Below, piece by piece: positions 31,958 to 49,571 of a stretch of 64,000 bases of DNA. The translations under genes and the position numbers were made by a program. The stretch's first letter is position 1. Every line of letters starts with the position of its first letter. Origin of the DNA: an uncultured euryarchaeote. Lineage in GTDB: Archaea > Thermoplasmatota > Poseidoniia > Poseidoniales > Thalassarchaeaceae. Below the pieces are notes generated by a model, which had not been told where the DNA came from, did no database searches, and saw nothing but the letters and a program-made list of their open reading frames with translations. The DNA lies in contig CALDRG010000023.1 in assembly GCA_937911265.1 (NCBI GenBank), positions 2,959 through 66,958 on the forward strand, written 5' to 3'.

Positions 31958-32029
31958 GCGGACATGGTCTAGTGGTTATGACAGTAGGTTCCCAACCTGC
32001 TAACCCGGGTTCAACTCCCGGTGTCCGCA
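31958..32029 (+). tRNA. tRNA-Gly (anticodon CCC)
   Basis: Acceptor GCGGACA/TGTCCGC, anticodon arm GTAGG-TTCCCAA-CCTGC, T-arm CCGGG-TTCAACT-CCCGG, discriminator A + CCA. Confidence 0.75.
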
Positions 32030-32090
32030 CCAATCACACGCGTGGGGGTTTAGCAACGCTAATGCGCAAATCAGAATTCGCACGGCCACA

Positions 32091-32165
32091 GGGCCCGTGG
32101 GTTAGCTTGGCCTATACTTGGCGCTTCGGGGGCGTTAGACCTCAGTTCAAATCTGGGCGGGCCCA
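32091..32165 (+). tRNA. tRNA-Pro (anticodon CGG), 75 nt with enlarged D-loop
   Basis: Acceptor GGGCCCG/CGGGCCC, anticodon arm GGCGC-TTCGGGG-GCGTT (G37), T-arm CTCAG-TTCAAAT-CTGGG, A73 + CCA. D-arm pairing is imperfect, so the isotype is less certain than the tRNA call itself. Confidence 0.6.
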
Positions 32166-32170
32166 CCACT

Positions 32171-33070: not shown

Positions 33071-33074
33071 TCGA

Positions 33075-33635: not shown

Positions 33636-33654
33636 ATCAAGGCCTCCAGCCGAA

Positions 33655-34797: not shown

Positions 34798-34867
34798 GCA
34801 ATATCGGCAGCGAGAACTGGTATATCAAACGCTGTATCGAAATTCGCACTCCTTAGAGTGCGTTCAT

Positions 34868-35707: not shown

Positions 35708-35778
35708 TTCGGGCCAAGAGGTCATGCTAGCGCCACAGAGGGACGCCATATCAATCAAACGGAGTCGGAGGGACGCCT

Positions 35779-37005
35779 TTAGGCGTCGTTCTCGCCGAAA
35801 GACGTCTTTCCCCCGCCCTTGCGAACGAGGTTCCAATGTTCTGCAATTTCATCGCCTCTGGCGCTTGGTTCCCAGACGTCCCTAGAAAGTGCCTTCCTGA
35901 ATGGCATGCGACTAACCATCCTGCCGTCCGCGAGCCGTTTGCGCCTCAACATGCCGAGTCTGACTACTGGCCACAGCATTCTCCGAATTAGTCCAGGCTT
36001 GTACACCCAGCGCATGAACACGAGACCGTCCCCCTTCTTGCGCTGGTCACGCATCCAGTGATTAGCCACCATCTTGAATCCTCGATTACCAACTCTGTTC
36101 ATCAGGAAACGGTTGACGGCGCTAGCCCTGACAAGGGGGACGAGACGCCCCCTCACCTCGCTCTCGTAGTCGCACTCGCCTAGAACGGCCTTGGCGGCCA
36201 TAACGCCGCTGGTGACTGCGTAACGCATCCCAAAGCCCCACATGAAATCCTGTAGGCCACCCGCCTCGCCGACGTAGTAGCGGCCCTCGTGTACGTACTT
36301 GTCAGGCAGCGAGAAGTCACCTTTGCCGCCGACCCTCTTAATCGGTCTGCGGTTCAGGTCGTAGTGCTGTTCGTACCATGCGATGGTCTCGTTGAGGTGG
36401 CGCGAAGTCTTCTTCTGCTGGCGCCACAGACAGGTGCAAATCAGACCTATGCCATCGATGATGATGAGATAGGAGTAGGCCCCCGGAGCCAGTTTGTCAT
36501 TCAACTGGAAGGTGACGTGATTGGGATGGTCTGTGTGAAAGATCTCCCCGAACGCCACCGCACTGGACTCCTTCGGACCGGCGGCGATGATATGGCAGTC
36601 CTTGGGATCCCTGCGGGTATCGTAGTGGATTTCTGCGCCCGCATCGAGTGCCATCCGCTTGAAGCCCTGATCGATGCAATGTCCAGCAGTTCCACGCTCT
36701 ACGACACGAAAAGCGAGTCCTGAGGTTCGAGGTTGAGTTATTTCGTCGTCAGGGTGTACGAGGTCAATCACATCAAACGCATCGGACTTGAACTCCTCCG
36801 GGTCGAAGCCCCATTCTCGTATCTCATCGAAGAAGTCGGAGTCACTGGTCCAGTTCTCTATGCCTTGGAAATCACCGTCGAAACGAGCTCCACTATCCGA
36901 GCGGATCTCGTGTACATGCACCTCACGTCCCGCATTCGCGAGATAGGTAGCTGCAGCGAGGCCCGAGAGCCCTGCCCCTAGTATGTGGACTGGCTCGCTG
37001 CTCAT
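35779..37005 (-). CDS. FAD-dependent oxidoreductase, geranylgeranyl reductase family
   Basis: VHILGAGLSGLAAATYLANAGREVHVHE dinucleotide-binding motif. Basic C-terminal tail. Confidence 0.6.
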   Translation of the reverse strand: MSSEPVHILGAGLSGLAAATYLANAGREVHVHEIRSDSGARFDGDFQGIENWTSDSDFFDEIREWGFDPEEFKSDAFDVIDLVHPDDEITQPRTSGLAFRVVERGTAGHCIDQGFKRMALDAGAEIHYDTRRDPKDCHIIAAGPKESSAVAFGEIFHTDHPNHVTFQLNDKLAPGAYSYLIIIDGIGLICTCLWRQQKKTSRHLNETIAWYEQHYDLNRRPIKRVGGKGDFSLPDKYVHEGRYYVGEAGGLQDFMWGFGMRYAVTSGVMAAKAVLGECDYESEVRGRLVPLVRASAVNRFLMNRVGNRGFKMVANHWMRDQRKKGDGLVFMRWVYKPGLIRRMLWPVVRLGMLRRKRLADGRMVSRMPFRKALSRDVWEPSARGDEIAEHWNLVRKGGGKTSFGENDA

Positions 37006-37085
37006 GTTACTTCGACTTCAGGCCCTCCGCTTGAACGGTTGGGTCGCGTCCGTCGCGTTCAAGCGCAGCACCTTGATGGCTCTGC

Positions 37086-37508
37086 ATGGCTCACGTACGA
37101 GTACTCATCGAGTCCGAGCGACTCGACCCAGAGGAACTGCGGAAAATGCTCGCTATGGATGGCTGCGGCAGCGTAGTCTCCTTCGTAGGACTCACTCGAG
37201 GAGAGGACCATGGAGTGGCTGTCGAGCGACTAGAGTTCGACGCTTGGGAGGAAAGACTCCCAGAGGTACTGAACGAGCTCTCCGAGCAGGCTCTGGGCCA
37301 GTTCGGAGTGAGTTCGGTGGTGTTGGCCCACCGCACTGGTTCTGTCAGGCCAGGCGAACCCATAGTATGCATCCACGTCGGCTCACCCCATAGGGCCGAG
37401 GGCTTCGAGGCCTGTAGTTGGCTGATAGATGAGCTGAAGCGGCAGGCCCCGTTGTGGAAGAAGGAGATCCGGGCCGATGGTGAGATCTGGAAGGCCGGTC
37501 TTGGATGA
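37086..37508 (+). CDS. moaE: molybdopterin synthase catalytic subunit
   Basis: GSVVSFVGLTR...LEFDAWEE...HRTGSVRPGEPIVCIHVGSPHRAEGFEA...PLWKKE. Confidence 0.75.
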   Translation: MAHVRVLIESERLDPEELRKMLAMDGCGSVVSFVGLTRGEDHGVAVERLEFDAWEERLPEVLNELSEQALGQFGVSSVVLAHRTGSVRPGEPIVCIHVGSPHRAEGFEACSWLIDELKRQAPLWKKEIRADGEIWKAGLG

Positions 37509-38855
37509 TTATATCGTGTCCATCACACCACTGACACTGGCCACTGCTTCGGGCACGTTCGATGCTATCCCTTCGACCATCATCCAGCCGTGCCCCTTGA
37601 TCCCGTCGCCAACGAGGCGAACCCCCTCTATGCCGACATCCGAGGGTAGTTCAGCGCCCTGTGGGGCGCGATTGCAAGGCCAGTTCCTGTGGTAGGTGTG
37701 GACGCACAACTCTTCTCCATGGTCAGCGAGCCACGGGATGGCGTCGTAGAGATCCTCGCGCCCCTTCGTTATCTCCGATTTCACGCTCGGGTCCGGCACA
37801 TACTGGTGTGTGATCATCATGTGCTTGCCCTCAGGTGCGAGGCTCGGATCGGAAAAGGTCGGAATTACGTATCCGCCAACTCTTTCCAAGCCCGGCAGCA
37901 TGGTTACCCCACTGCCGCGGTGAGGAATATCGTCGTCTAGCGCGAACACGAAGCCGATGCCTCCGACTGCTTGAGTGTCACGGACCTGCTCTCTGATTCC
38001 CGTAGCTACCTCAAAGTCGTCCGAGAGCGCCTTGAGCAGGTTAGGGTGTCCGCCGTTGTGGATGATTGCATCGGCACCAACCCAAACCCCCTCATCCCGA
38101 CCGCGCCGCCTGATGCCGATGCAGAAGCGGTTTCCCTTGGTCGACTCCTCTGCATCGCCTGGCAGTATCTCGGTGATCTCATGGGACAGCTTGACGCGAG
38201 CCCCGTTCTCCCGCAGGTCGCTTCGTAGCCCGTCGATGACTCCCTTGCACCCTCCCTTGGGAACATGAGGACGGTCGAGCCAGAATGAGTTCTGAAGCAT
38301 CCTAACGACGGTCGAAGCAGGCATCTGCTCGAACCTCAGGCTGATGGCGAAGTTGGAGAATGCATCGACAAAGTCGATGAAGTCACTGGAGAAGTACCTC
38401 GACATCCAGGTCCTGCCGTCCTCAGTCTCGTTGCCCCATGGCCGTTTGGCGGGCTTCATCAACAGCCGTGGCAGGTTCAGAGTGTCCTTGAGCGAGAACC
38501 ACGGTAAGACCCCGTAGACCGAGTTTGCCCGCTGCAGTTTACCGTCTTTAAGCCGGCAGGCGAACTTGGTGGTTGGCAGGAAGTCGACCCCATGACGTCC
38601 CAAATCGAGCCCACCGTTTTTCCTCTTCCCGAGAATCAGTTTGGCGAAGGGGCCTTTCTTGCCGTGCGGAATCATGTGGACTGCGCCGGTTGGAATTTGA
38701 AAACCATCGTGGTCGTGCTGGGTGAACCTGCCACCGGCGAAAGACATCCTCTCGTAGACTGCGACATCGTACTTCTGTGTCTGTGCGAGACTTGCAGCTG
38801 ATGCCAGCCCTCCTACTCCGGCGCCGATGACCACTGCCTTCGCTCGCTCGCTCAT
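37509..38855 (-). CDS. phytoene desaturase-like FAD/NAD(P)-dependent oxidoreductase (CrtI family)
   Basis: KAVVIGAGVGGLASAASLAQTQKYDVAVYERMSFAGGR. 448 aa. Confidence 0.65.
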   Translation of the reverse strand: MSERAKAVVIGAGVGGLASAASLAQTQKYDVAVYERMSFAGGRFTQHDHDGFQIPTGAVHMIPHGKKGPFAKLILGKRKNGGLDLGRHGVDFLPTTKFACRLKDGKLQRANSVYGVLPWFSLKDTLNLPRLLMKPAKRPWGNETEDGRTWMSRYFSSDFIDFVDAFSNFAISLRFEQMPASTVVRMLQNSFWLDRPHVPKGGCKGVIDGLRSDLRENGARVKLSHEITEILPGDAEESTKGNRFCIGIRRRGRDEGVWVGADAIIHNGGHPNLLKALSDDFEVATGIREQVRDTQAVGGIGFVFALDDDIPHRGSGVTMLPGLERVGGYVIPTFSDPSLAPEGKHMMITHQYVPDPSVKSEITKGREDLYDAIPWLADHGEELCVHTYHRNWPCNRAPQGAELPSDVGIEGVRLVGDGIKGHGWMMVEGIASNVPEAVASVSGVMDTI

Positions 38856-39254: not shown

Positions 39255-39716
39255 TTGGACGAGAATTCGTGGACCGGGATAATCGATGTGGGATCTAAGC
39301 CCGTTGTCGCTCGCGAGGCGGTAGCCACTGGCCTGCTTGTCCTCTCCGAGAGAGGTATCGATGTCGTGGCAAACGGCCGCTCCCCAAAGGGCGATGTCAG
39401 AGAAGCCTCGACGGTAGCCGCTATTCAGGCGGTAAAGGAGACGCCCCGAACCTTACCTCACTGCCATCCAATTCCCATCGAGGGCTGCACGGTTGATTGG
39501 AGGGTAGAGGAGAACGGTCTGCGCTGTACAGTCTCCGTGCGCACTCACTGGACCACCGGGGTGGAGATGGAGGCACTGTGCGGAGTCAACGCAGGGCTGC
39601 TGTGTGCCTGGGACATGCTCAAGTCAATTGAGAAGGACTCCGAGGGGCAGTATCCGACTTCTACGATAGAAGGAGTACGGGTCCTGCGCAAGAGCAAGGG
39701 CGACCCGCATGATTGA
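39255..39716 (+). CDS. moaC: cyclic pyranopterin monophosphate synthase
   Basis: MoaC signatures (GVEMEALCGVNAGLL). Confidence 0.85.
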   Translation: MDENSWTGIIDVGSKPVVAREAVATGLLVLSERGIDVVANGRSPKGDVREASTVAAIQAVKETPRTLPHCHPIPIEGCTVDWRVEENGLRCTVSVRTHWTTGVEMEALCGVNAGLLCAWDMLKSIEKDSEGQYPTSTIEGVRVLRKSKGDPHD

Positions 39717-40688
39717 ATGCTAAGGCTCATTCGGAACAGCATGGCGACCACCGACCTCATTGAGCACTTTCTACAGGCCACTGAGGCCGCTGCGGTAGCA
39801 GCTTCGGCTTGGAGAGGACTGGAGGACCGTAAGGCCGCAGACGGAGCAGCCGTAGAAGCCATGCGCACCGTCTTCGACAGCGTGCCCTTTGACGGGCGCG
39901 TGGCGATAGGCGAGGGCGAGCGCGATGATGCACCAATGCTTTGGATTGGCGAACCCCTAGGCTCGATGCAAGGTGTCACCGGGGCACCGACAATCGACAT
40001 AGCCGTCGATCCTCTGGAGTGTACTAACCACGTCGCCCTCGACCTGCCCAATGCGATGGCAGTTCTCGCCGCAGCTCCTCGCGGTAATTTGCTGCACGCC
40101 CCCGACTGCTACATGGACAAGATAGCCGGTCCGGCCGCCCTCGCAGGCGAGGTTAGCCTTGAGGCCGACACTTCTTACAACATTGAGGCTGCCTGTACTG
40201 CTCTTGGAAAAACTCCTTCACAGCTCTGCGTGGTGGTGATGGACAGACCGCGACACGAACAACTGATACGCGAGCTGAAGCAACACAAAGTCAACATCAT
40301 CCTCATTGGCGACGGTGACATTACCGCGGCTCTGAACGCCGCCGACCCCGATTCGGATATTGACATGCTGATGGGGATAGGGGCAGCACCCGAGGGAGTA
40401 ATCACGGCGACTGCCCTCAGGGGGCTGAAGGCTCCCTTTGAAGGCCGACTCGTGTTCAAAAACGAAGGCCATCGTGAGCGCGCTGAGAGTATGATCGAGG
40501 GCGATGTGGACAGGATCTGGAGTCGCGATGAGTTGTGCTCGTCGGACGATTCAGTATTCATCGGCTCTGGGGTCTGCCCAGGGCGGACCCGCGGAGTCGA
40601 GGAAACCGATGACGGAAGGTACTCAGTTCACTCAGAAGTGATTGATGTCAAATCTGGCGCGCATTACTTCGTGTCCTCGGTGCGATGA
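39717..40688 (+). CDS. glpX: fructose-1,6-bisphosphatase class II (GlpX type)
   Basis: DRKAADGAAVEAMR...TIDIAVDPLECTNH, GlpX metal-binding region. The true start may be MATTDL at ~39741. Confidence 0.8.
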   Translation: MLRLIRNSMATTDLIEHFLQATEAAAVAASAWRGLEDRKAADGAAVEAMRTVFDSVPFDGRVAIGEGERDDAPMLWIGEPLGSMQGVTGAPTIDIAVDPLECTNHVALDLPNAMAVLAAAPRGNLLHAPDCYMDKIAGPAALAGEVSLEADTSYNIEAACTALGKTPSQLCVVVMDRPRHEQLIRELKQHKVNIILIGDGDITAALNAADPDSDIDMLMGIGAAPEGVITATALRGLKAPFEGRLVFKNEGHRERAESMIEGDVDRIWSRDELCSSDDSVFIGSGVCPGRTRGVEETDDGRYSVHSEVIDVKSGAHYFVSSVR

Positions 40689-40729
40689 GTTCTTCTCCTA
40701 CTGCTCGCACGTGCTCACGAGGTTATTGG

Positions 40730-41749
40730 ATGGACATTGAACTCCTTGAGAAGACCGCAAGCGAACTGGTGGCTCCGGGCAAGGGAATACTCGCCGCCGA
40801 TGAGAGCAACGGGACGATGTCGAAGCGCTTGGCTGCTGCTGGAGTCGAACCCTCGTCTGAGTCTCGGCGCTTGTACCGAGCAAACCTGTTTGATACAGCA
40901 GGATACGAATCCGCTGTCGGAGGCGTCATATTGTTCGATGAGACAATCAGACAGAACATGGACGACGGCTCTCTCATAGCTGACGCGCTGAGTTCCAGAG
41001 GAATCCACCCAGGAATCAAGGTCGACACAGGGGCAAAGGACCTCGCCAATCACCCGGGTGAGAAAATTACAGAGGGTCTCGATGGACTCAGGGAGCGCTG
41101 CATCGAGTATTTCGAGATGGGCGCGCGTTTCGCCAAATGGCGAGCTGTCATTCGTATATCTGAGGGGATTCCTAGTCCTGCCTGCATATCGACCAACGCA
41201 CACGCGCTGGCCCGATACGCTGCAATCTGCCAGGAGCAGGGGCTGGTCCCCATCATCGAGCCAGAGGTACTGATGGATGGCTCCCATGACGCGCAGCGCT
41301 GCTATGACGTCACAGCCGAGATTCTCGATGCGACCTTCGCTGCCTGTGCTGAGCAGAGTATACACATCCCGGGAGCATTGCTCAAACCTAACATGATCAT
41401 CGCTGGCAACGATTGTCCCAACCAGATCCCGAGGGAAGAAGTGGCTAGGATGACAATTGACTGTCTGAGCAATCACGTCCCGCAAGACCTGCCGGGCATA
41501 GTCTTCCTCTCAGGAGGCCAGTCTGACGAGGATGCGACAGCCCACCTCAATCTGATGAACCAGATGAATGTCGAGCACCCTTGGCAACTTTCCTACTCCT
41601 ACGGCCGGGCACTGCAGGCACACGCCCTCACAACTTGGGCCAAAGGAGGTTCCGAGTCTGCAGCCGCCAGCCAGCGGATGTTCGCTCATCGGGCCGGCAT
41701 GAACAGCCTAGCTCGAAGCGGTGACTGGGGATCCGACTTAGAGGTCTAA
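40730..41749 (+). CDS. fba: fructose-bisphosphate aldolase class I (eukaryotic/FbaA type)
   Basis: GKGILAADESNGTMSKR, IIEPEVL, LSYSYGRALQ. Start at MDIELLEKT (internal Met of the ORF). Confidence 0.8.
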   Translation: MDIELLEKTASELVAPGKGILAADESNGTMSKRLAAAGVEPSSESRRLYRANLFDTAGYESAVGGVILFDETIRQNMDDGSLIADALSSRGIHPGIKVDTGAKDLANHPGEKITEGLDGLRERCIEYFEMGARFAKWRAVIRISEGIPSPACISTNAHALARYAAICQEQGLVPIIEPEVLMDGSHDAQRCYDVTAEILDATFAACAEQSIHIPGALLKPNMIIAGNDCPNQIPREEVARMTIDCLSNHVPQDLPGIVFLSGGQSDEDATAHLNLMNQMNVEHPWQLSYSYGRALQAHALTTWAKGGSESAAASQRMFAHRAGMNSLARSGDWGSDLEV

Positions 41750-42001
41750 TCAGATTTCGTCCAAGGCCCCAGGTCTCAGTTGCCAGACGCAGATTTCGTA
41801 GCGACCGGAGAGGGCACCGCCACGCTTTGTCGTTGCGACCTTCATGATGTCCTTGTCTTTGGACAGGACGTTCCCCAGTTGCTGGGGAGTAGTCCCATGA
41901 CGCATGGTGGAGTTCACGTGTTCAAGAATTTCTGTCGTGTTGGCTTCTCCTCTGTCATCCAAGAATTTTTTTATTTTCTGTCGTAGTCTGGTTGTCCTCA
42001 T
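41750..42001 (-). CDS. small winged-helix-like protein (paralog A)
   Basis: 83 aa. IKKFLDDRGEANTTEILEHV...TPQQLGNVL helix-turn-helix pattern. Paralogous to the adjacent 88-aa ORF. Confidence 0.4.
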   Translation of the reverse strand: MRTTRLRQKIKKFLDDRGEANTTEILEHVNSTMRHGTTPQQLGNVLSKDKDIMKVATTKRGGALSGRYEICVWQLRPGALDEI

Positions 42002-42011
42002 CTAAATCCTC

Positions 42012-42278
42012 CTATTTGTTGTCGGGCTTAGCACGCTCATGGTGCTGCACCCACTCCTCGGTCGCCCATTCCGAGAGTGGGGGGGTACTGCCGGCCATTC
42101 CGCTCTTGCGAACCGTTCCGATGCGGACGATACTCGTGTCTGTCTCCATCAGTGATGCTAGATCCAAGCTTCCAGAGTAGCCTTTCTGACCACTCAGCCA
42201 GGTTGCAATCTCAGCACTGTTCCTAGGCTGCTCAGAGATGTATTTGCGAATGATAAGTCGGATTTTTTCCGCTTCCAT
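42012..42278 (-). CDS. small winged-helix-like protein (paralog B)
   Basis: 88 aa. IRKYISEQPRNSAEIATWLS...SLDLASLMETD. Same architecture as 41750..42001. Confidence 0.4.
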   Translation of the reverse strand: MEAEKIRLIIRKYISEQPRNSAEIATWLSGQKGYSGSLDLASLMETDTSIVRIGTVRKSGMAGSTPPLSEWATEEWVQHHERAKPDNK

Positions 42279-42532
42279 TTGTCTCCCTCAAGCATACTCT
42301 CGGACCCGGCAGTCGGCCCGATGCGCATAGGATAGCGGGCGCTGATATAACCGTTCTGCACGAAATCACACCTTTTCGTTACAAATAGTTGCTAGAAATG
42401 AGGGCGTTTTCAGGTTTGAACCAAGTGTGGAAATGAAACTGATATATTCTCCATAGGAAATATGTAATCAAATGTAACGAAGCAACATAATTTAATACAT
42501 CAACGTTAGTAAGATGTATTGGGAGGTGGCGA
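42279..42532. promoter_or_regulatory. 254-bp AT-rich divergent intergenic region (GC roughly 38% versus ~58% locally)
   Basis: Longest AT-rich tract in the window outside the oriC candidate. Several TATA-like runs (gatatataa, tacaaatag, taatttaata). A GGAGGTGG RBS precedes the large gene. Confidence 0.4.
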
Positions 42533-45154
42533 GTGGTGTCAAATGAATTCTCTGAGCCACTGAAACCCGATTATTCGAACAGTGCTTGGAAAATCAGGAG
42601 TAAGCATCGCAGGAGACTCCTTGACCGGCTAACTGAGGGCGGTGCCACCGTCAGTGTGTTGGCTAGGGATGTTGAACTCAGGGTTCCGCATGCATCAGCA
42701 GAGATAAAACGATTGAGAAACGATGGACTGGTCTCCAGTGACCTATCTGCTGGTAGCCGTGGAGCTAGGATTCATCTGACCGAATTAGGTTGGGAGTCAG
42801 TGAGTGCTGACGAGTGGGCCAGAGCATCCGAAGCCTCTCCCTTGCCCGAAGACTCCAGCATGTGCTGCCTGCTGTTTCGCGATGGCCCGAACCTCTTGCT
42901 TGGAGTTATGGAGCCTTGCAACTCTCCCTTGCTATTGATTCCGGATCGCCCCCCCGTCGCGATTCCGGGCAATCCTGGTTCCACTGGAAGCGATGGGGTT
43001 CTCTGGAGCTGGGCGGCACTCAGGGAGAGAGATCCCCGGTGGTTCGACCTCTCGTCAATGGAGCCCAAGCCAAGCCCTCCGCCTCCTTCCGATCCGGAGA
43101 ACATAGCGGCTTACTCAGGACAGCGCACTGTCGTCGGGATAATCCGCGCTAGGCTGCTCGACGCCGAGAGACCAATCGCCATAGCGCCGGGTCAGTGGTT
43201 CGGGTCTCCGGACTTCCGGCCCGCGCCCCCGTTGCCTGAGGGCGACTATCATCGGGGGCCGTGGGTACTTGGTGCGTGCCACGAGATGTCGCCGGAGATT
43301 AGGCCGAAGGAGCCAGTGGTTGCTGTGATGGAAGACAGGCTCCCTCGCTCCATGTTGCTCAGGACAGTGAGGAATAACTCTCTGGTCATCGCGGATATCG
43401 GAGGACTGGACACCAATGGTGACCCGTATCCATTGGCAGCCCTTGATCCATGGATCGAGAAGGCCCACCCGCGTCTGAGCGACGCTGAGAGGAAACGGAG
43501 ACTAGGTGCCCTGAAGGACAGGGTCAGCAAGACGAGAAAGGTCAGGACCGAAGATTCCACATGGCGTCGATTCAGACAGGATTGGGGTGAATCGGTGTTC
43601 ACCGAGGAAGGCGATTCAATCAGGATCCTTGACCTAAGGGGGCTGGGTGGCACTGCGGCCGAGGCATTAGTGAGGTGGGCAATCAATGACGACGGCAAAC
43701 TCCCGCTGACTATCGAAGTCGGAGTTGATATGCCCGATGAACTAATCTCTTCAATCGCTTCTCATTCCAATCTCCGAATGGCTCTCCTCGAGGGCGAAGT
43801 AGCCGCGTTCTCCAGCTTCGACATACTGGATGCCGACCCCCTGAGGCCGCTGCCTTGGCTGCGCCTGACAACTAGGGGAGGGAGGATACTGCCAATGCGA
43901 CTGGCCGATCCAGCTCAGGTCCCTGAGTTTTCAGACTCCGATGAATCGGCCGTACTAGAGTGGGAATCCCTAGGCATCAACATCGACTTGGCTGAGGATC
44001 TCAAAGAGGGTCACCTCTCAGTCATCAATTCAGCTGTAGTTCAATATCCCACAGGCAATGAGGAGTGGGCCAACCAAATGGAAGCTAGATACCCAATTGC
44101 AGCTTGGATAGCATCTCCCGCCAGGACTAGATGGCCACGCTGGCAGAGACTCAGGAAACGACTCAGTCCGGAGTGGCTAGCACTCATGAATCTGGACGAC
44201 CTCCCGCTGGAGAGGCTGTCAGAGGTTGCCGACGAGGCACCCGACTCGGTCTTGGAAGAATTCTCCAAGAAGATTACCAACAGACTCAGACAGGATTCCG
44301 ATGCAGCACTCAGAACGAGACCAGCGACGGATCCGAAGCAAGCAACCCGTGGAGCCGCTTGGGTAGCAGCCCAACTGCTGTCAAACGCCCCCTGGCTACC
44401 GGAGCACATGCACTCGGACTTGCTCCATTGGGCACTGGAGGCATGGCTCTCCGAGCCTCCAAGTAATTCGATGCCTGCACTGCAGGGAGTCGCGTGGCTT
44501 TATTCTCAGGCCCACAGCAATGAATCCAATTTCAGACCAATACTTGAGGGGATTCGGAGCAAAGGAAAGGAATCTCCTTCTGGCCATGACCTGCACACGT
44601 GGGCCAGCCTGGCAGACATGATGCTGGACGACTCGAAGATTAATCTCGATGAATTGGAGAGGATATTGGAACTACCTCCCGGCTGGTGGGCACCGATTTC
44701 CGTCAAGATCCTCTCTGGGTTATTGGATGAGGAGGATTCTACAGATTGGGCCGTCGCCAACACCGTCCCCTGGTGTGCGGCAGTGCTGCGTCCGATGGGC
44801 GATCGCTGTCAGGCACCCGGACTCCGTTCCTACGAGCATCCCGGATGCGACTCAGAACTGTACTCTCGCCTCTCTCGGAGGTTGAGGGGCAGGCGTGAAC
44901 GTCAGGGCATGCCCGATACCGCTGAATCACTGCTGGATTTACTCGACGCCCTAGGCGCGGTGAATGGTGGCAAATCTCCTTCACCGGGAAAGACCCATCC
45001 TCTATCGGGGTGGCTCGCCCAGCCGTTGGATAAATGGCCGGAGTTCTCTTCGTCCGAGATCATGGACGGCGATGTTCACATCGCCGAGAGACTGCTCATG
45101 AGGAGCTCAGGGTATCATCCAAAAATCGTCCCTTCAACCTCGATTTCGGGTTGA
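42533..45154 (+). CDS. large orphan protein with N-terminal winged-helix DNA-binding domain and helical C-terminal region
   Basis: 873 aa. N-terminal RRRLLDRLTEGGATVSVLARDVELRVPHASAEIKRLRNDGLV (TrmB/MarR-like wHTH). No Walker, nuclease or other catalytic motif seen. Lower GC than neighbours. Confidence 0.5.
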   Translation: MVSNEFSEPLKPDYSNSAWKIRSKHRRRLLDRLTEGGATVSVLARDVELRVPHASAEIKRLRNDGLVSSDLSAGSRGARIHLTELGWESVSADEWARASEASPLPEDSSMCCLLFRDGPNLLLGVMEPCNSPLLLIPDRPPVAIPGNPGSTGSDGVLWSWAALRERDPRWFDLSSMEPKPSPPPPSDPENIAAYSGQRTVVGIIRARLLDAERPIAIAPGQWFGSPDFRPAPPLPEGDYHRGPWVLGACHEMSPEIRPKEPVVAVMEDRLPRSMLLRTVRNNSLVIADIGGLDTNGDPYPLAALDPWIEKAHPRLSDAERKRRLGALKDRVSKTRKVRTEDSTWRRFRQDWGESVFTEEGDSIRILDLRGLGGTAAEALVRWAINDDGKLPLTIEVGVDMPDELISSIASHSNLRMALLEGEVAAFSSFDILDADPLRPLPWLRLTTRGGRILPMRLADPAQVPEFSDSDESAVLEWESLGINIDLAEDLKEGHLSVINSAVVQYPTGNEEWANQMEARYPIAAWIASPARTRWPRWQRLRKRLSPEWLALMNLDDLPLERLSEVADEAPDSVLEEFSKKITNRLRQDSDAALRTRPATDPKQATRGAAWVAAQLLSNAPWLPEHMHSDLLHWALEAWLSEPPSNSMPALQGVAWLYSQAHSNESNFRPILEGIRSKGKESPSGHDLHTWASLADMMLDDSKINLDELERILELPPGWWAPISVKILSGLLDEEDSTDWAVANTVPWCAAVLRPMGDRCQAPGLRSYEHPGCDSELYSRLSRRLRGRRERQGMPDTAESLLDLLDALGAVNGGKSPSPGKTHPLSGWLAQPLDKWPEFSSSEIMDGDVHIAERLLMRSSGYHPKIVPSTSISG

Positions 45155-45512
45155 AAACTAGTTAATTTCTGACCGAGGGGTTCTTGACCACCCCCCATGG
45201 CCGATGTTTGCCCGAGCTGCAACACCGTGGCGACGAAGCCCCCCGCTGGAGGAATAGTATGAATCACGGTACCAAGTTCGGGTCACCACTTGCCGAAGAC
45301 CAGTGTGACCAGCTGCAACGGAATGATCACTGGAGCAAATCAAGTGGCCGGATTGTGTTAGGTCCCCCGATGACCGAAAGGAATGACTCAAGGGACTACC
45401 CCACAGTTCGACAGACGTCCCGGGGTGGGTCAGGCGCCCGAGCTTTGCTGTGAAGGATCGCCGTTACGCCCCGGGGCACACACTCCATTTGTCCAAAAAA
45501 GGCGGGAATCTG
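45155..45512. other. 358-bp non-coding gap of normal GC content; candidate structured RNA or degraded gene
   Basis: Only junk-like overlapping ORFs. Hairpins GAGGGG-ttcttgacca-CCCC and CCAGTG-n23-CACTGG. The 9-mer agctgcaac occurs twice. Confidence 0.3.
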
Positions 45513-46529
45513 ATGCATGACATCGGCCTAATCGGCGGCACCTTTGACCGCTTCCATGCCGGACACCTATCGCTGATGGAAGCTGGCCTGTCCGAGTGCT
45601 CCTTCATTGAGGTCTGGCTCACCGCAGATCGCCTTGCTCACTCGAAGGACTCGCGGGTGAATTCATGGGATACAAGGGCTCAGGAGATGGAGGAGGCGTT
45701 GGGGGACGATGCTGGCAGAGTTAGATTTCATACTCTCGAAGATAACCACGGACCCGCACCGGCGCATGCTGATGCCACAGCGATTATCTGCACCGGCGAG
45801 ACTCGCGCTGAGTGCGAGGAGATTAACCGACTAAGAGAAGGCAGCGACCTGTCACCGCTACACATCATCAGCGTAGGACACGTACTCGCATGGGACGACG
45901 AGCCGATATCCAGCTCTAGAATCAGAGCAGGGGAGATCGACCGTAATGGAAAGCCATGGATTCCAAACTCGATTAGGGCGGGCAGGATGGTCTTGACATC
46001 TCAGGTCGAAACAGAGCTCAAGGAACCCTTCGGTCAGTTGGTTTCTGGTCCGGAAGACAATCCCTCCGTTGCAATGACAGAAGTCCTCACCCATGTCGAA
46101 GGGGGGTCGGGGCCGGTCATCGCTGTTGGCGATGTGACAGTCCGCACTCTGCAGGACCTCAATCGGCCAGCTGACATCGCCCTCATCGATGGACTCACTA
46201 GGAGGGAGCCCTGGGAGGGCGCAGACGGAATCGATTCGTCGCTGTATGACAGGACCCTGCAGTGTTCCAGCCCTGCTGGTTCCTTGACGCCTTCGCTGCT
46301 GGAGGCCTGTGAGCAGGCAATGAAATCCTGGAAGGAAGGGCGGTTAACTCATTTAATTCAAGTCGAAGGTGAGGAAGATCTAGCCCCGCTTATCTTGCAT
46401 CCACTGGCCCCCTTGGGTGCTGTTGTGCTATATGGCCAACCAGAGAAAGGAGTCGTAATCAGATGGTGCGGAGAGGACGCCAAACAGCGTTGCCGCAGAC
46501 TGCTCAGAGAATTCATTCCCGCCGAATAA
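45513..46529 (+). CDS. coaD: bifunctional phosphopantetheine adenylyltransferase / GTP-dependent dephospho-CoA kinase (PPAT-DUF359 fusion)
   Basis: N-terminal IGLIGGTFDRFHAGH (nucleotidyltransferase HxGH). The C-terminal half has a DUF359-like PVIAVGDVTVRTLQDLNRPADIALIDGLTRRE. Confidence 0.6.
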   Translation: MHDIGLIGGTFDRFHAGHLSLMEAGLSECSFIEVWLTADRLAHSKDSRVNSWDTRAQEMEEALGDDAGRVRFHTLEDNHGPAPAHADATAIICTGETRAECEEINRLREGSDLSPLHIISVGHVLAWDDEPISSSRIRAGEIDRNGKPWIPNSIRAGRMVLTSQVETELKEPFGQLVSGPEDNPSVAMTEVLTHVEGGSGPVIAVGDVTVRTLQDLNRPADIALIDGLTRREPWEGADGIDSSLYDRTLQCSSPAGSLTPSLLEACEQAMKSWKEGRLTHLIQVEGEEDLAPLILHPLAPLGAVVLYGQPEKGVVIRWCGEDAKQRCRRLLREFIPAE

Positions 46530-47063
46530 TCAGGACTCGGAATCAGCCATCGTGTGGATAGCGAAGCCGAAACTCACCATCACGATCATTACAGCGTAAA
46601 CCCCTGGATCGACCCAGGTCGTGTTCATCAAGCTCCAATAGAGGTAGAATCCAACACCGAGGGCGATGAGCCAACTTGCGATGGTGCGGTTGAAGCCTCC
46701 GTCAGGGGAGAACAGACTGGATGCAATTGCCCCTTGGGGGATGCCATTGACCCAAGCCGAGAAGCCACCTTCTACAGCCTTGCCCATTCCCATGGCACCT
46801 AGGCCTAGGAGGACTACACCTATCAGTCCGAAGACGATGTCATCTGCGACCACTTCAAATCCGCCATGGGCAATGTTCGAAGTAGCGCTGTCACCAGTGA
46901 TGAATCCGATCCACAGAACCTTGAATCCTGATGAGTAGGCCCCGGAGAAGAGGTTCACTGCAGTCAGTAATAGCACCCAGGCACCAAGCAAGACGGCGGC
47001 GCTGGACGCAGTGCTACTGGGTTTGGTCAGGGCACTGCCCCACTCGGATTCTTGCAGGGACAT
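46530..47063 (-). CDS. integral membrane protein (4-5 TM helices), unknown function
   Basis: Hydrophobic segments AAVLLGAWVLLLTAV, IVFGLIGVVLLGLGAMG, WLIALGVGFYLYW. Start placed at an internal Met. Confidence 0.4.
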   Translation of the reverse strand: MSLQESEWGSALTKPSSTASSAAVLLGAWVLLLTAVNLFSGAYSSGFKVLWIGFITGDSATSNIAHGGFEVVADDIVFGLIGVVLLGLGAMGMGKAVEGGFSAWVNGIPQGAIASSLFSPDGGFNRTIASWLIALGVGFYLYWSLMNTTWVDPGVYAVMIVMVSFGFAIHTMADSES

Positions 47064-47118
47064 CGAGCCGGCGACCTTGACCTTCGATTTAACGATTGTC
47101 TGAGGGAAGAACAGCCTC

Positions 47119-48357
47119 TCAGAGTTGACCCTGCAGGTTGTATCTGCCGAGCGCGGCCTCGGCAATCAGAGGTTCACTCTCACTCATTGTGGCGATGGCG
47201 TCCACTGCCTTGGGTATGGCCGAGTTGACCTGTTTGCTCCTGCCGCCGCGGCCCTTGCTGACATTCCTAGCCATAATCAGCCCGAGCGTATCGAGTTCGT
47301 TGAGCAGCGAAGATATCCTCCTAGGGGTGAGCGGCTCGACACTGATCTTCATGCATGCTTCGGCATAGGTCCGGTAAGTTTCCCCAGTGGAGATATTCCT
47401 CAGGCCGTTATCTTCGTTCATCCTGATTGAGAATAGCAACAACTTTTGGTGCAGTGGCAGAGTCTTCAGCACAGGAGTCACTTGGTCGTACTCCAACTGA
47501 CTCTGCGCCAATCTGACGTGCCTAGGGTCTACAACCTTCTGAGCCCGCTGCTCTGCCTTCTGCACTGAGATGCGTAACAGGTCGAGCGCCCTGCGCGCGT
47601 CCCCGTGCTCCTGTGCGGCCAGTGCCGAGCAGAGTTCAAGCACACCAGAATCGAGGACTCCCTCGTGAAGACCGGCGCTAACACGCTCGGTTAGGATGTC
47701 CTGAATCTCTGGAGCCCCGTAGGGGTGGAAGACGACATCCTCCTGACTGAGCCTCGAGCTGACCCGAGGATCGAGCTGCTGAGTGAAATGCAGATCGTTG
47801 CTGATTCCGATGAGACAGCAGCGGGCGTTTTTCAGAGAGGTATTCAAGCTGGTCAGGTTGTACAACAAACCATCTCCAGCTCTGGCCACGAGATTGTCAA
47901 TCTCGTCCAGCACTAGAATGTGCACTCCTCCCGCTCGTTCCATCCTCTCAATCAGGACTTCGAGAACTCTGTCAGTGGGCCAGCCGGTGAATGGGATTGG
48001 AGTATCTCCTCGTCGAGCGAGTTGGGAGGCGATACTCTGAACGACGCGGTACTTGGTATCCACAACACGGCAGTTGATCTCGTAGGTCTCAACGCTCCGC
48101 CCCATCTCCTTGCCCTTGTCGAGAAGTTGCCCTAAGACGAATCTTGTGACCACGGTTTTGCCTGACCCGGGTACTCCATAGAGCAGCATGTTCGAAGGGA
48201 TGTGGCCATTCAAGGCATCAACCATATTGCGTACCAAAGCATCCACTTCGTGTTCTCTGTGGGGCAGGGTAGATGGCTCGAAGGCGTGATCGAACGCTCG
48301 TCTGTCGACGAAGAGACTGTCCTGGCCGAGAATCTTTTCGAAAATGTTTCCTTCCAT
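47119..48357 (-). CDS. cdc6: Orc1/Cdc6 replication initiator (AAA+ ATPase with C-terminal winged helix)
   Basis: Walker A LLYGVPGSGKTVV, Walker B ILVLDEIDNL, sensor regions, and a C-terminal wH (LRISVQKAEQRAQ...). Confidence 0.9.
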   Translation of the reverse strand: MEGNIFEKILGQDSLFVDRRAFDHAFEPSTLPHREHEVDALVRNMVDALNGHIPSNMLLYGVPGSGKTVVTRFVLGQLLDKGKEMGRSVETYEINCRVVDTKYRVVQSIASQLARRGDTPIPFTGWPTDRVLEVLIERMERAGGVHILVLDEIDNLVARAGDGLLYNLTSLNTSLKNARCCLIGISNDLHFTQQLDPRVSSRLSQEDVVFHPYGAPEIQDILTERVSAGLHEGVLDSGVLELCSALAAQEHGDARRALDLLRISVQKAEQRAQKVVDPRHVRLAQSQLEYDQVTPVLKTLPLHQKLLLFSIRMNEDNGLRNISTGETYRTYAEACMKISVEPLTPRRISSLLNELDTLGLIMARNVSKGRGGRSKQVNSAIPKAVDAIATMSESEPLIAEAALGRYNLQGQL

Positions 48358-48755
48358 TTTCTTTCACCAGGGGTCCAGTCGCGTATCCAGCCTCCCTCTT
48401 ACTCTGGTCGAGTAGGTGTCGGCGAACGCGGATTCTCAGCGAGGATGCAGGAGGTAATAAGACTGTCCGAGAAGAACGAAATTTTGCTTGATTATCATGT
48501 CCTCTAATGCCTCAGTACCATGCCCCTCTAACATCCGCCTAAGAACTCTCTTAGTTGTACTCAGTCAGGCTTTTTTATCAATATAATTTCAGTGTATTTA
48601 TTGCATCTAATTCATTCATTCATGTATTTCTCCCACTCCTGCTACTATGGCAGGTAATCGAACCTGCTGGGGCTTCCTCGACAGCGACATTCGACATTAT
48701 TTCTGGGAACTACTCAGGGCTCCGATGAAAGCTAATATAAAACAAGATAAATTAT
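48358..48755. other. putative chromosomal replication origin (oriC) with AT-rich DNA-unwinding element
   Basis: 398-bp gap immediately upstream of orc1/cdc6. AT-rich core ~48570-48640 (ttttttatcaatataatttcagtgtatttattgcatctaattcattcattcat). Dyads cctgc-N7-gcagg and ttccactccagtgg nearby. Confidence 0.5.
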
Positions 48756-49571
48756 TCACGAATTTCTTTGCAAAGATAGTTGGCCATCATCGCCTATATT
48801 CAGGTAGTCACCATCCTCGAGTTGGATAATCGAATTGGGCAGATCAGGCATTCTAAAACCCACTTCCACTCCAGTGGCGCTCGCAAAGTTATGAGTCACC
48901 AAGACCAGCGCGTGAGGATGCCTCTGGGCGAATGTAATCGCATCTGATGGAGTGTGGTGATGGGGGCTGTCCACGAAGTCGGGGATCCCCATCTCGAGCA
49001 GCACGACATCGGCATTTGGGGCCCGCTGCTCGATGCCTTCGCAAGGACCCGAGTCTCCGCAGTGGAGGAGCCTGAATCCACTCGAGTGAATGAACTCATA
49101 GCCATGCGGGTCGGTCTCCGGAGTGTGACTCACCGGAAACCTTTCGAAACTCCAGTCCGTTCCTGCCAGTTCACCCGACTCCGACTCCGACCAGTCGACC
49201 CCACTCTCTAGGGCGCCATCGAGACTCCCTGGGAATCCCGTTCCGCACAAGCCACTGAGCAGTTTCCTGCCACCTGGCCTGAGATGAACCCCCAAAGTAT
49301 TCTCAGATTCAGGGTCTGAGATATACTTCCTCTCGAGCAGTATGAATGGGAAGCCGAAGATGTGGTCGGCGTGCCAGTGGGTGATCAAGAGATGCTTGAG
49401 ATTAGCGGGCGAGATATCGACTCTCTGCAGTTGGACCAGCGCCGTCGGTGGCGCGTCTACTAGCACGCTGCCGTCCAGCAGTGCCAGCGCATGCATCCTA
49501 CCAGGGGGCGAGAAGGCATTCCCTGTGCCGAGGAAGTCAATACGCGCCACGAGCCGCGATGAGGGCATCAT
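48756..49571 (-). CDS. MBL-fold metallo-hydrolase
   Basis: THWHADH motif plus downstream His/Asp ligands. 271 aa. Confidence 0.75.
   Translation of the reverse strand: MMPSSRLVARIDFLGTGNAFSPPGRMHALALLDGSVLVDAPPTALVQLQRVDISPANLKHLLITHWHADHIFGFPFILLERKYISDPESENTLGVHLRPGGRKLLSGLCGTGFPGSLDGALESGVDWSESESGELAGTDWSFERFPVSHTPETDPHGYEFIHSSGFRLLHCGDSGPCEGIEQRAPNADVVLLEMGIPDFVDSPHHHTPSDAITFAQRHPHALVLVTHNFASATGVEVGFRMPDLPNSIIQLEDGDYLNIGDDGQLSLQRNS

What the first reader, a model, noticed from the sequence alone, without database searches (positions are those of the whole stretch)
41750..45154. Low-GC three-gene winged-helix island: two paralogous mini-wHTH proteins, an AT-rich spacer, and an 873-aa orphan wHTH protein
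Two adjacent minus-strand ORFs (83 and 88 aa) are clear paralogs, each a small winged-helix protein. They are transcribed divergently from an 873-aa protein across a 254-bp AT-rich spacer. The large protein has an N-terminal TrmB/MarR-like wHTH and a ~700-aa helical body with no catalytic motif I can recognise. The first part of the large gene and the spacer have visibly lower GC than the ~58% surroundings, and the unit sits 2-3 kb from orc1/cdc6 and the putative origin. Two readings fit: an origin-associated DNA-binding module (by analogy with WhiP/Cdt1-like initiators next to archaeal origins), or a horizontally acquired regulatory or defence cassette. It is the strongest candidate in the window for a previously undescribed system.
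Basis: partly seen in the sequence, partly recalled or inferred. Interest (0 to 1): 0.7.

Follow-up and report, generated by a model that had tools for sequence, protein, structure and literature searches.

The report
Origin-linked winged-helix genes of MGII archaea
The three genes are not a foreign island but a vertically inherited gene set of Marine Group II archaea that straddles conserved Orc1 recognition boxes, probably the chromosome's replication origin, and one of them is an almost invariant small DNA-binding-fold protein that the viruses of these archaea also carry next to replication genes.

Summary
The ORFs exist as described. Both small proteins belong to Pfam DUF3860, whose solved structure is PDB 2OD5, and have a winged-helix fold, but they are only distant paralogues (16-20% identity). 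The 873-aa protein is not an orphan: about 870-aa homologues occur in 79 Poseidoniales species genomes, always divergent from a DUF3860 gene. The block DUF3860 / spacer / large gene / PPAT-DUF359 / membrane protein / Orc1 persists even where the left flank is rearranged. Coding GC is normal. The horizontal-transfer and defence reading is rejected.

New findings:
- A 22-bp origin recognition box (ORB), GTTCCACTGGAAGCGATGGGGT at 42978-42999, lies inside the large gene. It is the only strong ORB hit in the 64 kb, is conserved in 72 of 82 loci, and is the gene's strongest synonymous-site constraint (z 7.8).
- A palindromic mini-ORB sits at -87 of the start codon.
- A GTTACA...TGTAAC inverted repeat with fixed 95-bp spacing brackets the mini-ORB.
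- No ORB recurs upstream of orc1.
- The 83-aa protein averages 94% identity across the family (Orc1 83%) with scrambled synonymous sites.
- Homologues of the 83-aa protein sit among DNA helicase and clamp-loader genes on magrovirus-like contigs.

Best reading: this is the Poseidoniales origin neighbourhood, with lineage-specific origin-associated winged-helix proteins. Protein function is inferred only.

The parts
41750..42001 (-). 83-aa DUF3860 winged-helix protein ('sA'), basic (pI 9.8) and near-invariant across Thalassarchaeaceae
42012..42278 (-). 88-aa DUF3860 paralogue ('sB'), faster evolving, upstream gene of the probable sB-sA operon (10-bp gap)
   Evidence: PF12976 at 72.5 bits. 2OD5 E 8.7e-11. 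Mean 60% identity. Absent from about 22 loci of one clade.
42279..42532 (.). Divergent intergenic spacer, AT-rich (GC 0.43), of near-constant length (253-259 bp in 51 of 56 distinct loci), with deeply conserved blocks
42345..42350 (-). Conserved ATATAA block, with the flanking G.T.ATATAA...TTCTG.A. Inferred TATA/BRE of the sB-sA operon
   Evidence: Conserved in all clades, including distant ones. The promoter role is inferred.
42375..42383 (.). Left arm TTCGTTACA of a 9-bp perfect inverted repeat. Candidate operator for one of the wHTH proteins
   Evidence: repeat I6. GTTACA lies at -158 of the BIG start in 55 of 64 distinct spacers.
42425..42441 (+). ORB-like half-site GTGTGGAAATGAAACTG, conserved only in the nearer clades
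   Evidence: The only exact GGAAATGAAAC in the window. Conserved block. Matches the Thermococcus oriC sequence CCAGTGGAAATGAAACTCC (PMC11005403).
42449..42461 (+). Mini-ORB CTCCATAGGAAAT. In other clades it reads TTCCA(C/G)TGGAAAT, with a palindromic core
   Evidence: Fixed at -87/-88 of the BIG start in 49(+)/30(-) loci. Present in distant clades L088 and L085. In this window it ranks 5th among all 13-mers.
42463..42481 (.). TGTAAT-N4-TGTAACGAA, the right arm of the inverted repeat plus a tandem half-site
   Evidence: TGTAAC lies at -63 of the BIG start. Spacing to GTTACA is 94-96 bp in all 55 spacers that carry both.
42487..42496 (+). ATAATTTAAT, inferred TATA box of the large gene. The Shine-Dalgarno-like GGAGGTG is at 42522-42528
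   Evidence: Conserved block atAaTTTA. Sequence. The role is inferred.
42533..45154 (+). 873-aa Poseidoniales-specific protein ('BIG'): ArsR/MarR-like wHTH (about residues 23-90), a proline-rich segment (100-294), an alpha/beta domain (295-460) and a HEAT-like helical body (480-865)
42710..42736 (+). Second peak of synonymous-site conservation inside BIG (codons 60-68), seen in the nearer clades only and unexplained
   Evidence: Observed/expected 2.09. Codon alignment. Tandem AAACGATTGA / AAACGATGGA.
42978..42999 (+). Full-length origin recognition box GTTCCACTGGAAGCGATGGGGT (dyad plus G-string), embedded in BIG codons 149-156
   Evidence: 26.2 bits with a PWM built from published Methanomassiliicoccales ORBs. 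The next best hit in the 64 kb is 11.8 and the highest shuffle score is 18.9. 19 of 22 positions match 'Ca. M. alvus' ORB4 (PMC4153887). A hit of at least 15 bits lies at +370..+480 in 72 of 82 loci. Strongest synonymous constraint in the gene, observed/expected 2.66, z 7.8. The codons TCC, GGA and GGG are fixed while the central amino acid varies among T, S, N and K.
45450..47165 (.). PPAT-like/DUF359 fusion gene (+) and a small membrane-protein gene (-) that always lie between BIG and orc1
47119..48357 (-). Orc1/Cdc6 initiator gene, the presumed reader of the ORBs, 4.1 kb from the full ORB
   Evidence: Cdc6_lid, Cdc6_C and AAA domains. Linkage conserved in all loci long enough to show it.

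Best explanation
This is the conserved replication-origin neighbourhood of Marine Group II archaea (order Poseidoniales; the window is from a Thalassarchaeaceae genome). It is not an acquired island.

Shown:
- The 254-bp spacer and the first ~470 bp of the large gene carry Orc1-type recognition boxes. A palindromic mini-ORB sits 87 bp upstream of the start codon, next to the most AT-rich ~90 bp. A full 22-bp ORB lies 442 bp inside the coding sequence, and codon choice is frozen to preserve it.
- The three genes are vertically inherited and specific to the order.
- The 83-aa DUF3860 protein has a winged-helix fold and is under extreme protein-level purifying selection.
- A rigid GTTACA-N89-TGTAAC inverted repeat brackets the mini-ORB.

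Inferred:
- Orc1, encoded 4 kb away in the same conserved block, binds these boxes, and replication starts here.
- The inverted repeat is the operator through which DUF3860 dimers, or the ArsR-like N-terminus of the large protein, control the divergent promoters.
- The DUF3860 proteins, possibly together with the large wHTH-plus-helical-scaffold protein, are origin-associated DNA-binding factors. They would be functionally comparable to the haloarchaeal oapABC cluster or to Sulfolobus WhiP.
For: Vertical inheritance:
- At least 291 full-length homologue clusters.
- 79 GTDB species loci, all Poseidoniales.
- A collinear block in all loci.
- The core DUF3860 / spacer / BIG / PPAT-DUF359 / ... 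/ Orc1 is kept where the left flank is rearranged.
- Normal coding GC.

ORBs:
- A PWM from published ORBs gives a single outlier in the 64 kb, 26.2 bits against 11.8 for the next hit, with shuffle maxima up to 18.9.
- The same site is present in 72 of 82 loci and almost nowhere else in 1.68 Mb.
- Synonymous constraint there has z 7.8.
- The mini-ORB is fixed at -87/-88.
- ORB consensus sequences come from PMC4153887 and PMC1904270. The latter also documents an ORB cluster inside a coding gene, dp1.
- No ORB recurs in the orc1-upstream region.
- The cumulative GC-skew and purine-excess minimum is at 39.2 kb, with a switch from minus-strand to plus-strand genes there. This is weak support.

Proteins:
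- Winged-helix fold.
- sA has 94% mean identity against 83% for Orc1, with synonymous codon identity of 0.43, like its neighbours.
- The inverted repeat has fixed positions and 94-96-bp spacing in 55 of 64 distinct spacers.
- sA-type DUF3860 genes lie in a conserved block with an SNF2 helicase and an RFC-like clamp loader on 4 of 5 IMG/VR contigs. This matches the group-A magrovirus replicative module (PMC5434244).
- Precedent for a conserved three-gene origin-associated cluster: oapABC (PMC7002104).
Against: - There is only one full ORB plus one or two mini-ORBs, all readable in the same orientation. Typical archaeal origins have at least two ORBs inverted around the unwinding element.
- The site is 4.1 kb from orc1 rather than adjacent to it.
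- The skew minimum lies 3 kb to the left and follows gene orientation.
- One clade (L086/L087) keeps the genes and the inverted repeat but has lost both ORBs and the peptide segment that encodes the intragenic one. The proteins therefore do not need the ORBs in cis.
- The viral segments show no ORB or TGTAAC enrichment.
- Nothing here measures DNA binding, expression or replication initiation.
Confidence: 0.55

Rival explanations
1. Neighbours by coincidence. The ORBs mark the origin, but the DUF3860 proteins and the large protein are an ordinary autoregulated transcription-factor pair, or an abundant chromatin protein. They simply sit next to oriC, where essential and highly expressed genes tend to accumulate. 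The GTTACA/TGTAAC repeat is their own operator and has nothing to do with replication.
For: - The closest structural relatives of sA are PadR, RosR and MarR transcription regulators.
- The N-terminus of the large protein is ArsR-like.
- A divergent promoter with a fixed inverted repeat is the classic layout of an autoregulated regulator.
- The L086/L087 clade keeps the genes and the repeat without ORBs.
- Extreme conservation fits any essential, abundant protein.
Against: - Linkage to the Orc1 block survives rearrangement of the other flank.
- The viral homologues lie among DNA-replication and DNA-metabolism genes rather than in a regulatory or lysogeny module.
- An ORB has been built into the large gene's coding sequence and kept there across the order.
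Confidence: 0.28
2. The ORB-like boxes are not an origin. They are sites through which an Orc1 paralogue, or another dimeric wHTH protein that recognises the TTCCA-N-TGGAA palindrome, regulates transcription of the large gene, for example coupling it to the cell cycle. The real origin lies elsewhere, perhaps upstream of orc1.
For: - Only one full ORB is present, and all boxes can be read in one orientation.
- The mini-ORB lies about 35 bp upstream of the inferred TATA box of the large gene.
- Non-initiator Orc1-2 acts as a global transcription regulator in Sulfolobales (abstract of PMC9738581).
- The orc1-upstream region is AT-rich (GC 0.44) and of constant ~400-bp length.
Against: - A regulatory site 442 bp inside the coding region is unusual.
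- The full ORB has the G-string and spacing of initiator ORBs.
- The orc1-upstream region has no ORB and is poorly conserved.
- No other full ORB occurs anywhere in the 64 kb.
Confidence: 0.14
3. A horizontally acquired regulatory or anti-phage defence cassette.
For: - The spacer is AT-rich and the two small genes have slightly lower GC.
- There are weak sub-threshold hits of the HTH to CasR/Csa3-type wHTH models.
- DUF3860 homologues occur on viral contigs.
Against: - The genes are present and collinear in all 79 species-level Poseidoniales loci, and in more distant clades.
- Coding GC and GC3 are like the neighbours'.
- No defence-system model matches beyond the HTH.
- The large protein is absent from viral contigs.
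- sA is the most conserved gene in the block, which is the opposite of a fast-evolving defence gene.
Confidence: 0.02

Closest known systems
Haloarchaeal oapABC (origin-associated protein) cluster next to the canonical oriC/Orc (PMC7002104)
   Same: Both are highly conserved, lineage-wide three-gene clusters of unknown function. Both are divergently transcribed at the ORB-bearing origin region and linked to the main Orc1/Cdc6 gene.
   Different: No sequence relationship was detected. The deep HMMER search with the large protein returned only its own family, and every named DUF3860 homologue is from Poseidoniales. Here Orc1 is 4 kb away rather than directly across the origin, and one ORB lies inside a gene of the cluster. 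Direct comparison with Oap sequences was not done.
Sulfolobus WhiP (winged-helix initiator protein, Cdt1-like) encoded beside oriC3 (PMC3607249 and PMC3914693; details from memory)
   Same: A winged-helix protein is encoded next to the origin it serves.
   Different: The Pfam scan found no Cdt1- or WhiP-related family. DUF3860 is a single 83-aa wHTH domain whose structural neighbours are PadR, RosR and MarR. WhiP's origin came from a captured extrachromosomal element, whereas this locus is ancestral to the order.
Archaeal ORB elements: archaeal consensus CTTCCAGTGGAAACGAAAGGGGT and Methanomassiliicoccales GTTCCAGTGGAAATGG-AGGGGTA (PMC4153887); the ORB cluster inside the Pyrococcus dp1 gene (PMC1904270)
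   Same: The window element at 42978-42999 has the dyad, the G-string and the Methanomassiliicoccales spacing, matching 19 of 22 positions of 'Ca. M. alvus' ORB4. As in Pyrococcus dp1, an ORB lies within a coding sequence near orc1.
   Different: There is one full ORB rather than a pair or cluster, it is not adjacent to orc1, and binding is untested.
Pfam PF12976 (DUF3860) / PDB 2OD5, a structural-genomics structure of a 'putative nucleic acid binding protein' from an uncultured marine organism
   Same: Both small proteins are members. 2OD5 is 70-75% identical to sA, and the model superposes on it at 1.2 A.
   Different: 2OD5 is 90% identical to the single-copy 107-aa protein of the distant L088 clade. 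That form combines features that sA and sB have divided between them. No function, context or conservation pattern has been published (no papers found).
PadR / RosR / MarR / ArsR small dimeric wHTH transcription regulators
   Different: No sequence-level membership. The two half-sites are 95 bp apart rather than adjacent. The conservation (94% across a family) is far beyond that of typical regulators.

Membership tests
Pfam PF12976 (DUF3860) | Whole-protein score above the curated gathering cut-off (27 bits) | tested here: met
   83-aa protein 133 bits; 88-aa protein 72.5 bits. Both match PDB 2OD5.
Winged helix-turn-helix fold | H1-b1-H2-H3-b2-wing-b3 topology and structural superposition on known wHTH domains | tested here: met
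ArsR/SmtB family (N-terminus of the 873-aa protein) | Score above the curated cut-offs of HTH_5, HTH_20 or NF033788 | tested here: not met
   HTH_20 20.3 bits (cut-off 27), HTH_5 16.8 (22), NF033788 27.1 (55). The resemblance is at fold level only: Foldseek local hits to SmtB/MarR with probability 0.97-0.99, on a low-confidence part of the model.
Archaeal origin recognition box (ORB) | Sequence: TTCCA-N-TGGAAA dyad followed by a G-string (GGGGT) at the consensus spacing | tested here: met
   42978-42999 GTTCCACTGGAAGCGATGGGGT scores 26.2 bits with a PWM built only from published ORBs, a unique outlier in the 64 kb. Conserved in 72 of 82 loci.
Archaeal origin recognition box (ORB) | Bound specifically by Orc1/Cdc6 | not testable with these tools
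   Needs EMSA, footprinting or ChIP. DNA-level selection on the site is shown (z 7.8), but the ligand is inferred.
Archaeal chromosomal replication origin (oriC) | Several ORBs, typically inverted, flanking an AT-rich unwinding element | tested here: inconclusive
   There is one full ORB, one order-wide mini-ORB with a palindromic core and one clade-specific half-site. They span 42425-42999 and flank an AT-rich stretch. All can be read on the + strand.
Archaeal chromosomal replication origin (oriC) | Located beside the main orc1/cdc6 gene | tested here: not met
   The full ORB is 4.1 kb from the 3' end of orc1, with two genes in between. The linkage is nevertheless conserved across the order. 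The region directly upstream of orc1 has no ORB.
Archaeal chromosomal replication origin (oriC) | Nucleotide-skew inflection, marker-frequency peak or ARS activity | tested here: inconclusive
   Within the 64 kb the cumulative GC-skew and purine-excess minimum is at 39.2 kb, 3 kb to the left, and coincides with a switch in gene strand. Whole-genome skew and coverage analysis could not be run.
Anti-phage defence system (PADLOC models) | Match to a defence-system protein model beyond a generic HTH | tested here: not met
   Only weak hits of residues 23-86 to CasR/Csa3 HTH regions (best E 9.7e-5). Nothing meaningful for the small proteins.
Horizontally acquired genomic island | Patchy distribution among relatives and atypical composition of the genes | tested here: not met
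   Present and collinear in all loci. Gene GC 0.51-0.57 against 0.55-0.60 for the neighbours.
WhiP / Cdt1 winged-helix initiators | Sequence homology to Cdt1/WhiP domains | tested here: not met
Haloarchaeal OapA/B/C | Sequence homology to the Oap proteins | not tested
   No Oap sequences were at hand. Indirectly, the profile search with the large protein found only its own ~800-910-aa family among 1.84 billion representatives.

The most novel reading that the evidence does not exclude
DUF3860, acting alone or with the ~870-aa wHTH-scaffold protein, is a previously unrecognised replication-origin factor of Poseidoniales: an origin-binding, licensing or origin-regulating protein working with Orc1. 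It is shared with magroviruses. These viruses encode a near-complete replisome, but neither Orc1 nor Cdc6 is mentioned in the main text of the paper describing them, so they may use their DUF3860 homologue as the origin-recognition component.
Probability: 0.22. Interest if true: 0.85.

Novelty: new variant of a known kind. Interest (0 to 1): 0.66.

Why it matters
[quoted passage not shown] I found no paper describing their replication origin. A sequence-defined origin would allow the following:
- In-situ growth rates estimated from metagenome coverage (peak-to-trough ratios).
- Genome assemblies anchored and oriented at a common point.
- A concrete, cloneable DNA fragment and three proteins for biochemistry.

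The 83-aa winged-helix protein is more conserved than Orc1 and has been copied by the viruses of these archaea. Yet it is known only as a 'domain of unknown function with a PDB structure'. Linking it to the origin makes a structural-genomics orphan testable.

An ORB held in place inside a coding sequence by frozen codon choice is also a clean example of dual coding at a replication origin.

Tried and rejected
- Pairwise BLASTP of the two small proteins: no hit. Homology rests on profiles only.
- NCBIfam, PHROGs and PADLOC on the three proteins: nothing informative.
- PDB sequence search with the large protein: only marginal HTH hits.
- Profile-profile comparison of DUF3860 with the N-terminal wHTH of the large protein: no relationship.
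- Rfam on the whole window and, permissively, on the spacer: only tRNAs elsewhere. A known structured RNA in the spacer is rejected.
- Sigma-70 promoter and intrinsic-terminator scan: nothing, as expected for an archaeon.
- Simple motif searches for ORB-like strings within the window alone were not significant. Significance came from positional conservation across loci and from the full-length PWM.
- The region upstream of orc1 was examined as the presumed origin. It has constant length, poor sequence conservation and no ORB.
- Literature: no paper mentions DUF3860. No description of an MGII origin was found. The metatranscriptome supplement held nothing on these genes.
- Viral segments: no ORB or TGTAAC/GTTACA enrichment. 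sA has no homologue in the GenBank phage collection.
- A correlation between the number of TGTAAY half-sites and the number of DUF3860 genes was looked for by eye and was not clean. I make no claim on it.

Full report

**Not an orphan, not an island.** The large protein has at least 291 clusters of full-length homologues of about 870 aa. A profile search of 1.84 billion representatives returned 189 hits. All the full-length ones (about 760-910 aa) align over essentially the whole profile, and the rest are short fragments of it. So the family has one architecture and no detectable wider relatives.

In one genome per GTDB species it was found at 79 loci, and every taxonomically informative record title is Poseidoniales. 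tblastn with the window's neighbours shows a collinear block in every locus long enough to tell: MoaC, GlpX, aldolase, DUF3860(-), [DUF3860(-)], BIG(+), PPAT/DUF359, membrane protein, Orc1(-), MBL, FNR-like. The 88-aa paralogue is missing from one clade.

In the most distant members the left flank is different (NadA, or DeoC with GlpX and MoaC inverted). The core DUF3860(-), spacer, BIG(+), PPAT/DUF359, GT2, membrane protein, Orc1(-) is retained. Coding GC is ordinary: 0.51, 0.54 and 0.57 against 0.55-0.60 for the neighbours. Across 21 divergent loci the GC dip is confined to the 200 bp upstream of the large gene. PADLOC gives nothing beyond the HTH. The horizontal-transfer and defence reading is therefore rejected.

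**The spacer is a rigid, deeply conserved structure.** Its length is 253-259 bp in 51 of 56 distinct loci, whether one or two DUF3860 genes precede it. Blocks conserved throughout the order are:
- An ATATAA-containing block, inferred to be the TATA/BRE of the small-gene operon.
- A perfect 9-bp inverted repeat, TTCGTTACA (42375-42383) and TGTAACGAA (42473-42481). Its core hexamers sit at -158 and -63 of the start codon of the large gene, 94-96 bp apart, in 55 of 64 distinct spacers.
- A TTCCA(N)TGGAAA(T/C) box at -87/-88.
- An ATAATTTAAT block, inferred to be the TATA box of the large gene.

Rfam finds no known RNA in the spacer.

**Origin recognition boxes.** The -87 box equals the archaeal mini-ORB. 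PMC1904270 gives 'TTCC' and 'GAA' as its invariant cores and quotes TTCCAGTGGAACT. In distant clades the box reads TTCCAGTGGAAAT. In this window it is the weaker CTCCATAGGAAAT at 42449-42461.

A second recurrent match lies inside the large gene. PMC4153887 lists ORBs of the related order Methanomassiliicoccales, for example GTTCCACTGGAAATGG-TGGGGT, and the archaeal consensus CTTCCAGTGGAAACGAAAGGGGT. The window has GTTCCACTGGAAGCGATGGGGT at 42978-42999. This matches 19 of 22 positions of 'Ca. M. alvus' ORB4 and has the same spacing.

A PWM built only from the ten published ORBs scores this site at 26.2 bits. The next best site on either strand of the 64 kb scores 11.8, and the maxima of 30 shuffles average 13.3 with a top of 18.9. 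Over 82 loci (1.68 Mb), hits of at least 15 bits fall at +370..+480 of the large gene in 72 loci and almost nowhere else. These include the most distant members (L084 25.9 bits, L088 23.3, L045 30.7). None recurs in the orc1-MBL intergenic region.

The site is under DNA-level selection. With Met and Trp excluded, codons 146-154 have the highest synonymous-codon identity in the 873-codon gene: observed/expected 2.66 against a mean of 1.13 and sd of 0.20, z 7.8. Ser is almost always TCC, the first Gly is always GGA (AGA where the residue is Arg) and the second Gly is always GGG. The central residue varies among T, S, N and K, but always with an A-initial codon.

One clade (L086/L087) lacks both boxes and has the corresponding peptide segment deleted. 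It keeps the genes and the inverted repeat. The segment is therefore dispensable for the protein. That fits its being kept for its DNA, and it also shows the proteins do not depend on the ORBs in cis.

**Is it the origin?** The points in favour are:
- It holds the only full ORB in 64 kb.
- The full ORB and the mini-ORB are conserved across the order.
- Both flank the most AT-rich stretch.
- The site is conserved in linkage with orc1.
- There is no ORB upstream of orc1, a region of constant ~400-bp length but poor sequence conservation.
- The cumulative GC-skew and purine-excess minimum lies at 39.2 kb, where a long run of minus-strand genes gives way to plus-strand genes.

The points against are:
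- There is a single full ORB.
- All boxes can be read in one orientation, although the mini-ORB core is palindromic.
- It lies 4.1 kb from orc1.
- The skew signal is 3 kb away and confounded by gene orientation.

I put Orc1 binding at about 0.75 and origin function at about 0.6. Pyrococcus offers a precedent for ORBs inside a coding gene near orc1, namely dp1 (PMC1904270).

**The proteins.** Among 21 representatives sharing under 85% identity in the large protein, the 83-aa protein averages 94% identity (minimum 89%). The comparable figures are Orc1 83%, GlpX 78%, the 88-aa paralogue 60% and the large protein 54%. Its synonymous codon identity (0.43) is like that of its neighbours (0.33-0.41). 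The constraint is therefore on the protein, not the DNA. The 83-aa protein is basic (pI 9.8), the paralogue is near neutral and the large protein is acidic. DUF3860 and the large protein's own wHTH are unrelated at profile level. 2OD5 is 90% identical to the single-copy 107-aa protein of the distant L088 clade, a form that combines features of both paralogues.

**Viral homologues.** Five IMG/VR contigs encode sA-type DUF3860 proteins that are 49-74% identical over the aligned length and keep the NSTMRHGTTPQQLGNVLSKDKDI core almost intact. Three of them carry an extra ~75-aa C-terminal domain. In four of the five contigs the gene sits in the same co-directional block: [SNF2 helicase, DNA methyltransferase...] 237-aa protein, DUF3860, ~460-aa protein, ~125-aa protein, RFC-like clamp loader, ~460-aa protein. 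The SNF2 end of the block was identified in three of the four.

Magroviruses, the viruses of Marine Group II, are described as having a conserved replicative module with a clamp loader, and an SNF2 helicase in group A (PMC5434244). The main text of that paper mentions neither Orc1 nor Cdc6. The large protein has no viral homologue. This is an independent, contextual link between sA-type DUF3860 and DNA replication or DNA metabolism. The viral segments carry no ORB or TGTAAC enrichment.

The ORB passes the sequence definition of its family, while its binding and origin activity remain untested. DUF3860 membership is certain, and the ArsR label for the large protein is only fold-level.

**Verdict.** The origin-associated reading is supported in an unexpected and sharper form, and the acquired-cassette reading is refuted. 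I classify the finding as a new variant of a known kind: an archaeal ORB-type origin region with a lineage-specific set of origin-linked winged-helix genes, one of which carries an ORB in its coding sequence. The roles of the proteins remain inferred.

Noticed in passing
L098-L102 (IMG/VR contigs); DUF3860 genes at L098 4971-5258, L099 4998-5465, L100 4668-5153, L102 2021-2500: sA-type DUF3860 homologues (49-74% identical) lie on viral contigs. Four contigs share a block with an RFC-like clamp loader and several unknown ~237-, ~460- and ~125-aa proteins; three of the four also show an SNF2 helicase, and a methyltransferase was identified in one. Three viral copies have an extra ~75-aa C-terminal domain with no Pfam match.
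   Followed up: partly
window 42710-42736: A second peak of synonymous-site conservation lies inside the large gene (codons 60-68, observed/expected 2.09). It overlaps tandem AAACGATTGA / AAACGATGGA repeats, is conserved only in the nearer clades and is not ORB-like. Its cause is unknown.
   Followed up: partly
window 48358-48755 (orc1-MBL intergenic region): This AT-rich region (GC 0.44) has nearly constant ~400-bp length across loci. It is poorly conserved apart from a block about 70-115 nt upstream of orc1 (...GCGGATTC...CGAGG...GGTAATAAGACTGTCC). It has no ORB. The block may be the orc1 promoter plus a long leader, or a small RNA.
   Followed up: partly
L086/L087 (distant clade reached through P0257): This clade keeps two DUF3860 genes, the large gene, the GTTACA/TGTAAC repeat and the Orc1 linkage. 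It has lost both ORBs and the peptide segment that encodes the intragenic one. No ORB above 10 bits occurs anywhere in the 22.5-kb locus.
   Followed up: partly
window 45450-46529: A fusion of a cytidylyltransferase-like (PPAT-type) domain with DUF359 always lies directly downstream of the large gene. From memory, DUF359 is the archaeal dephospho-CoA kinase family, so this may be a bifunctional enzyme for the last two steps of CoA synthesis.
   Followed up: no
window 46530-47165: The longest ORF of the small membrane protein overlaps the 3' end of orc1 by 47 nt. Relatives are called at 147-187 aa, so the true start is probably further downstream.
   Followed up: no
window 48756-49571: An MBL-fold hydrolase is conserved next to orc1. 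Its relatives carry a precomputed Pfam hit to Anti-Pycsar_Apyc1 (PF23023). Given its universal synteny it is probably a housekeeping enzyme rather than an anti-defence gene.
   Followed up: no
window 31452-32165 and 59143-59214: Three tRNA genes are clustered at 31452-32165, and a fourth lies on the minus strand at 59143-59214. These are the only Rfam matches in the window.
   Followed up: no
window 22968-38855 versus 39255-46529: A long run of almost exclusively minus-strand genes gives way to plus-strand genes at about 39 kb. This coincides with the minimum of cumulative GC skew and purine excess at 39190.
   Followed up: partly
L091, L097 (long-read 'pilon' contigs): The large gene is split into several short ORFs in these assemblies, most likely by uncorrected frameshift errors rather than real pseudogenisation.
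   Followed up: no
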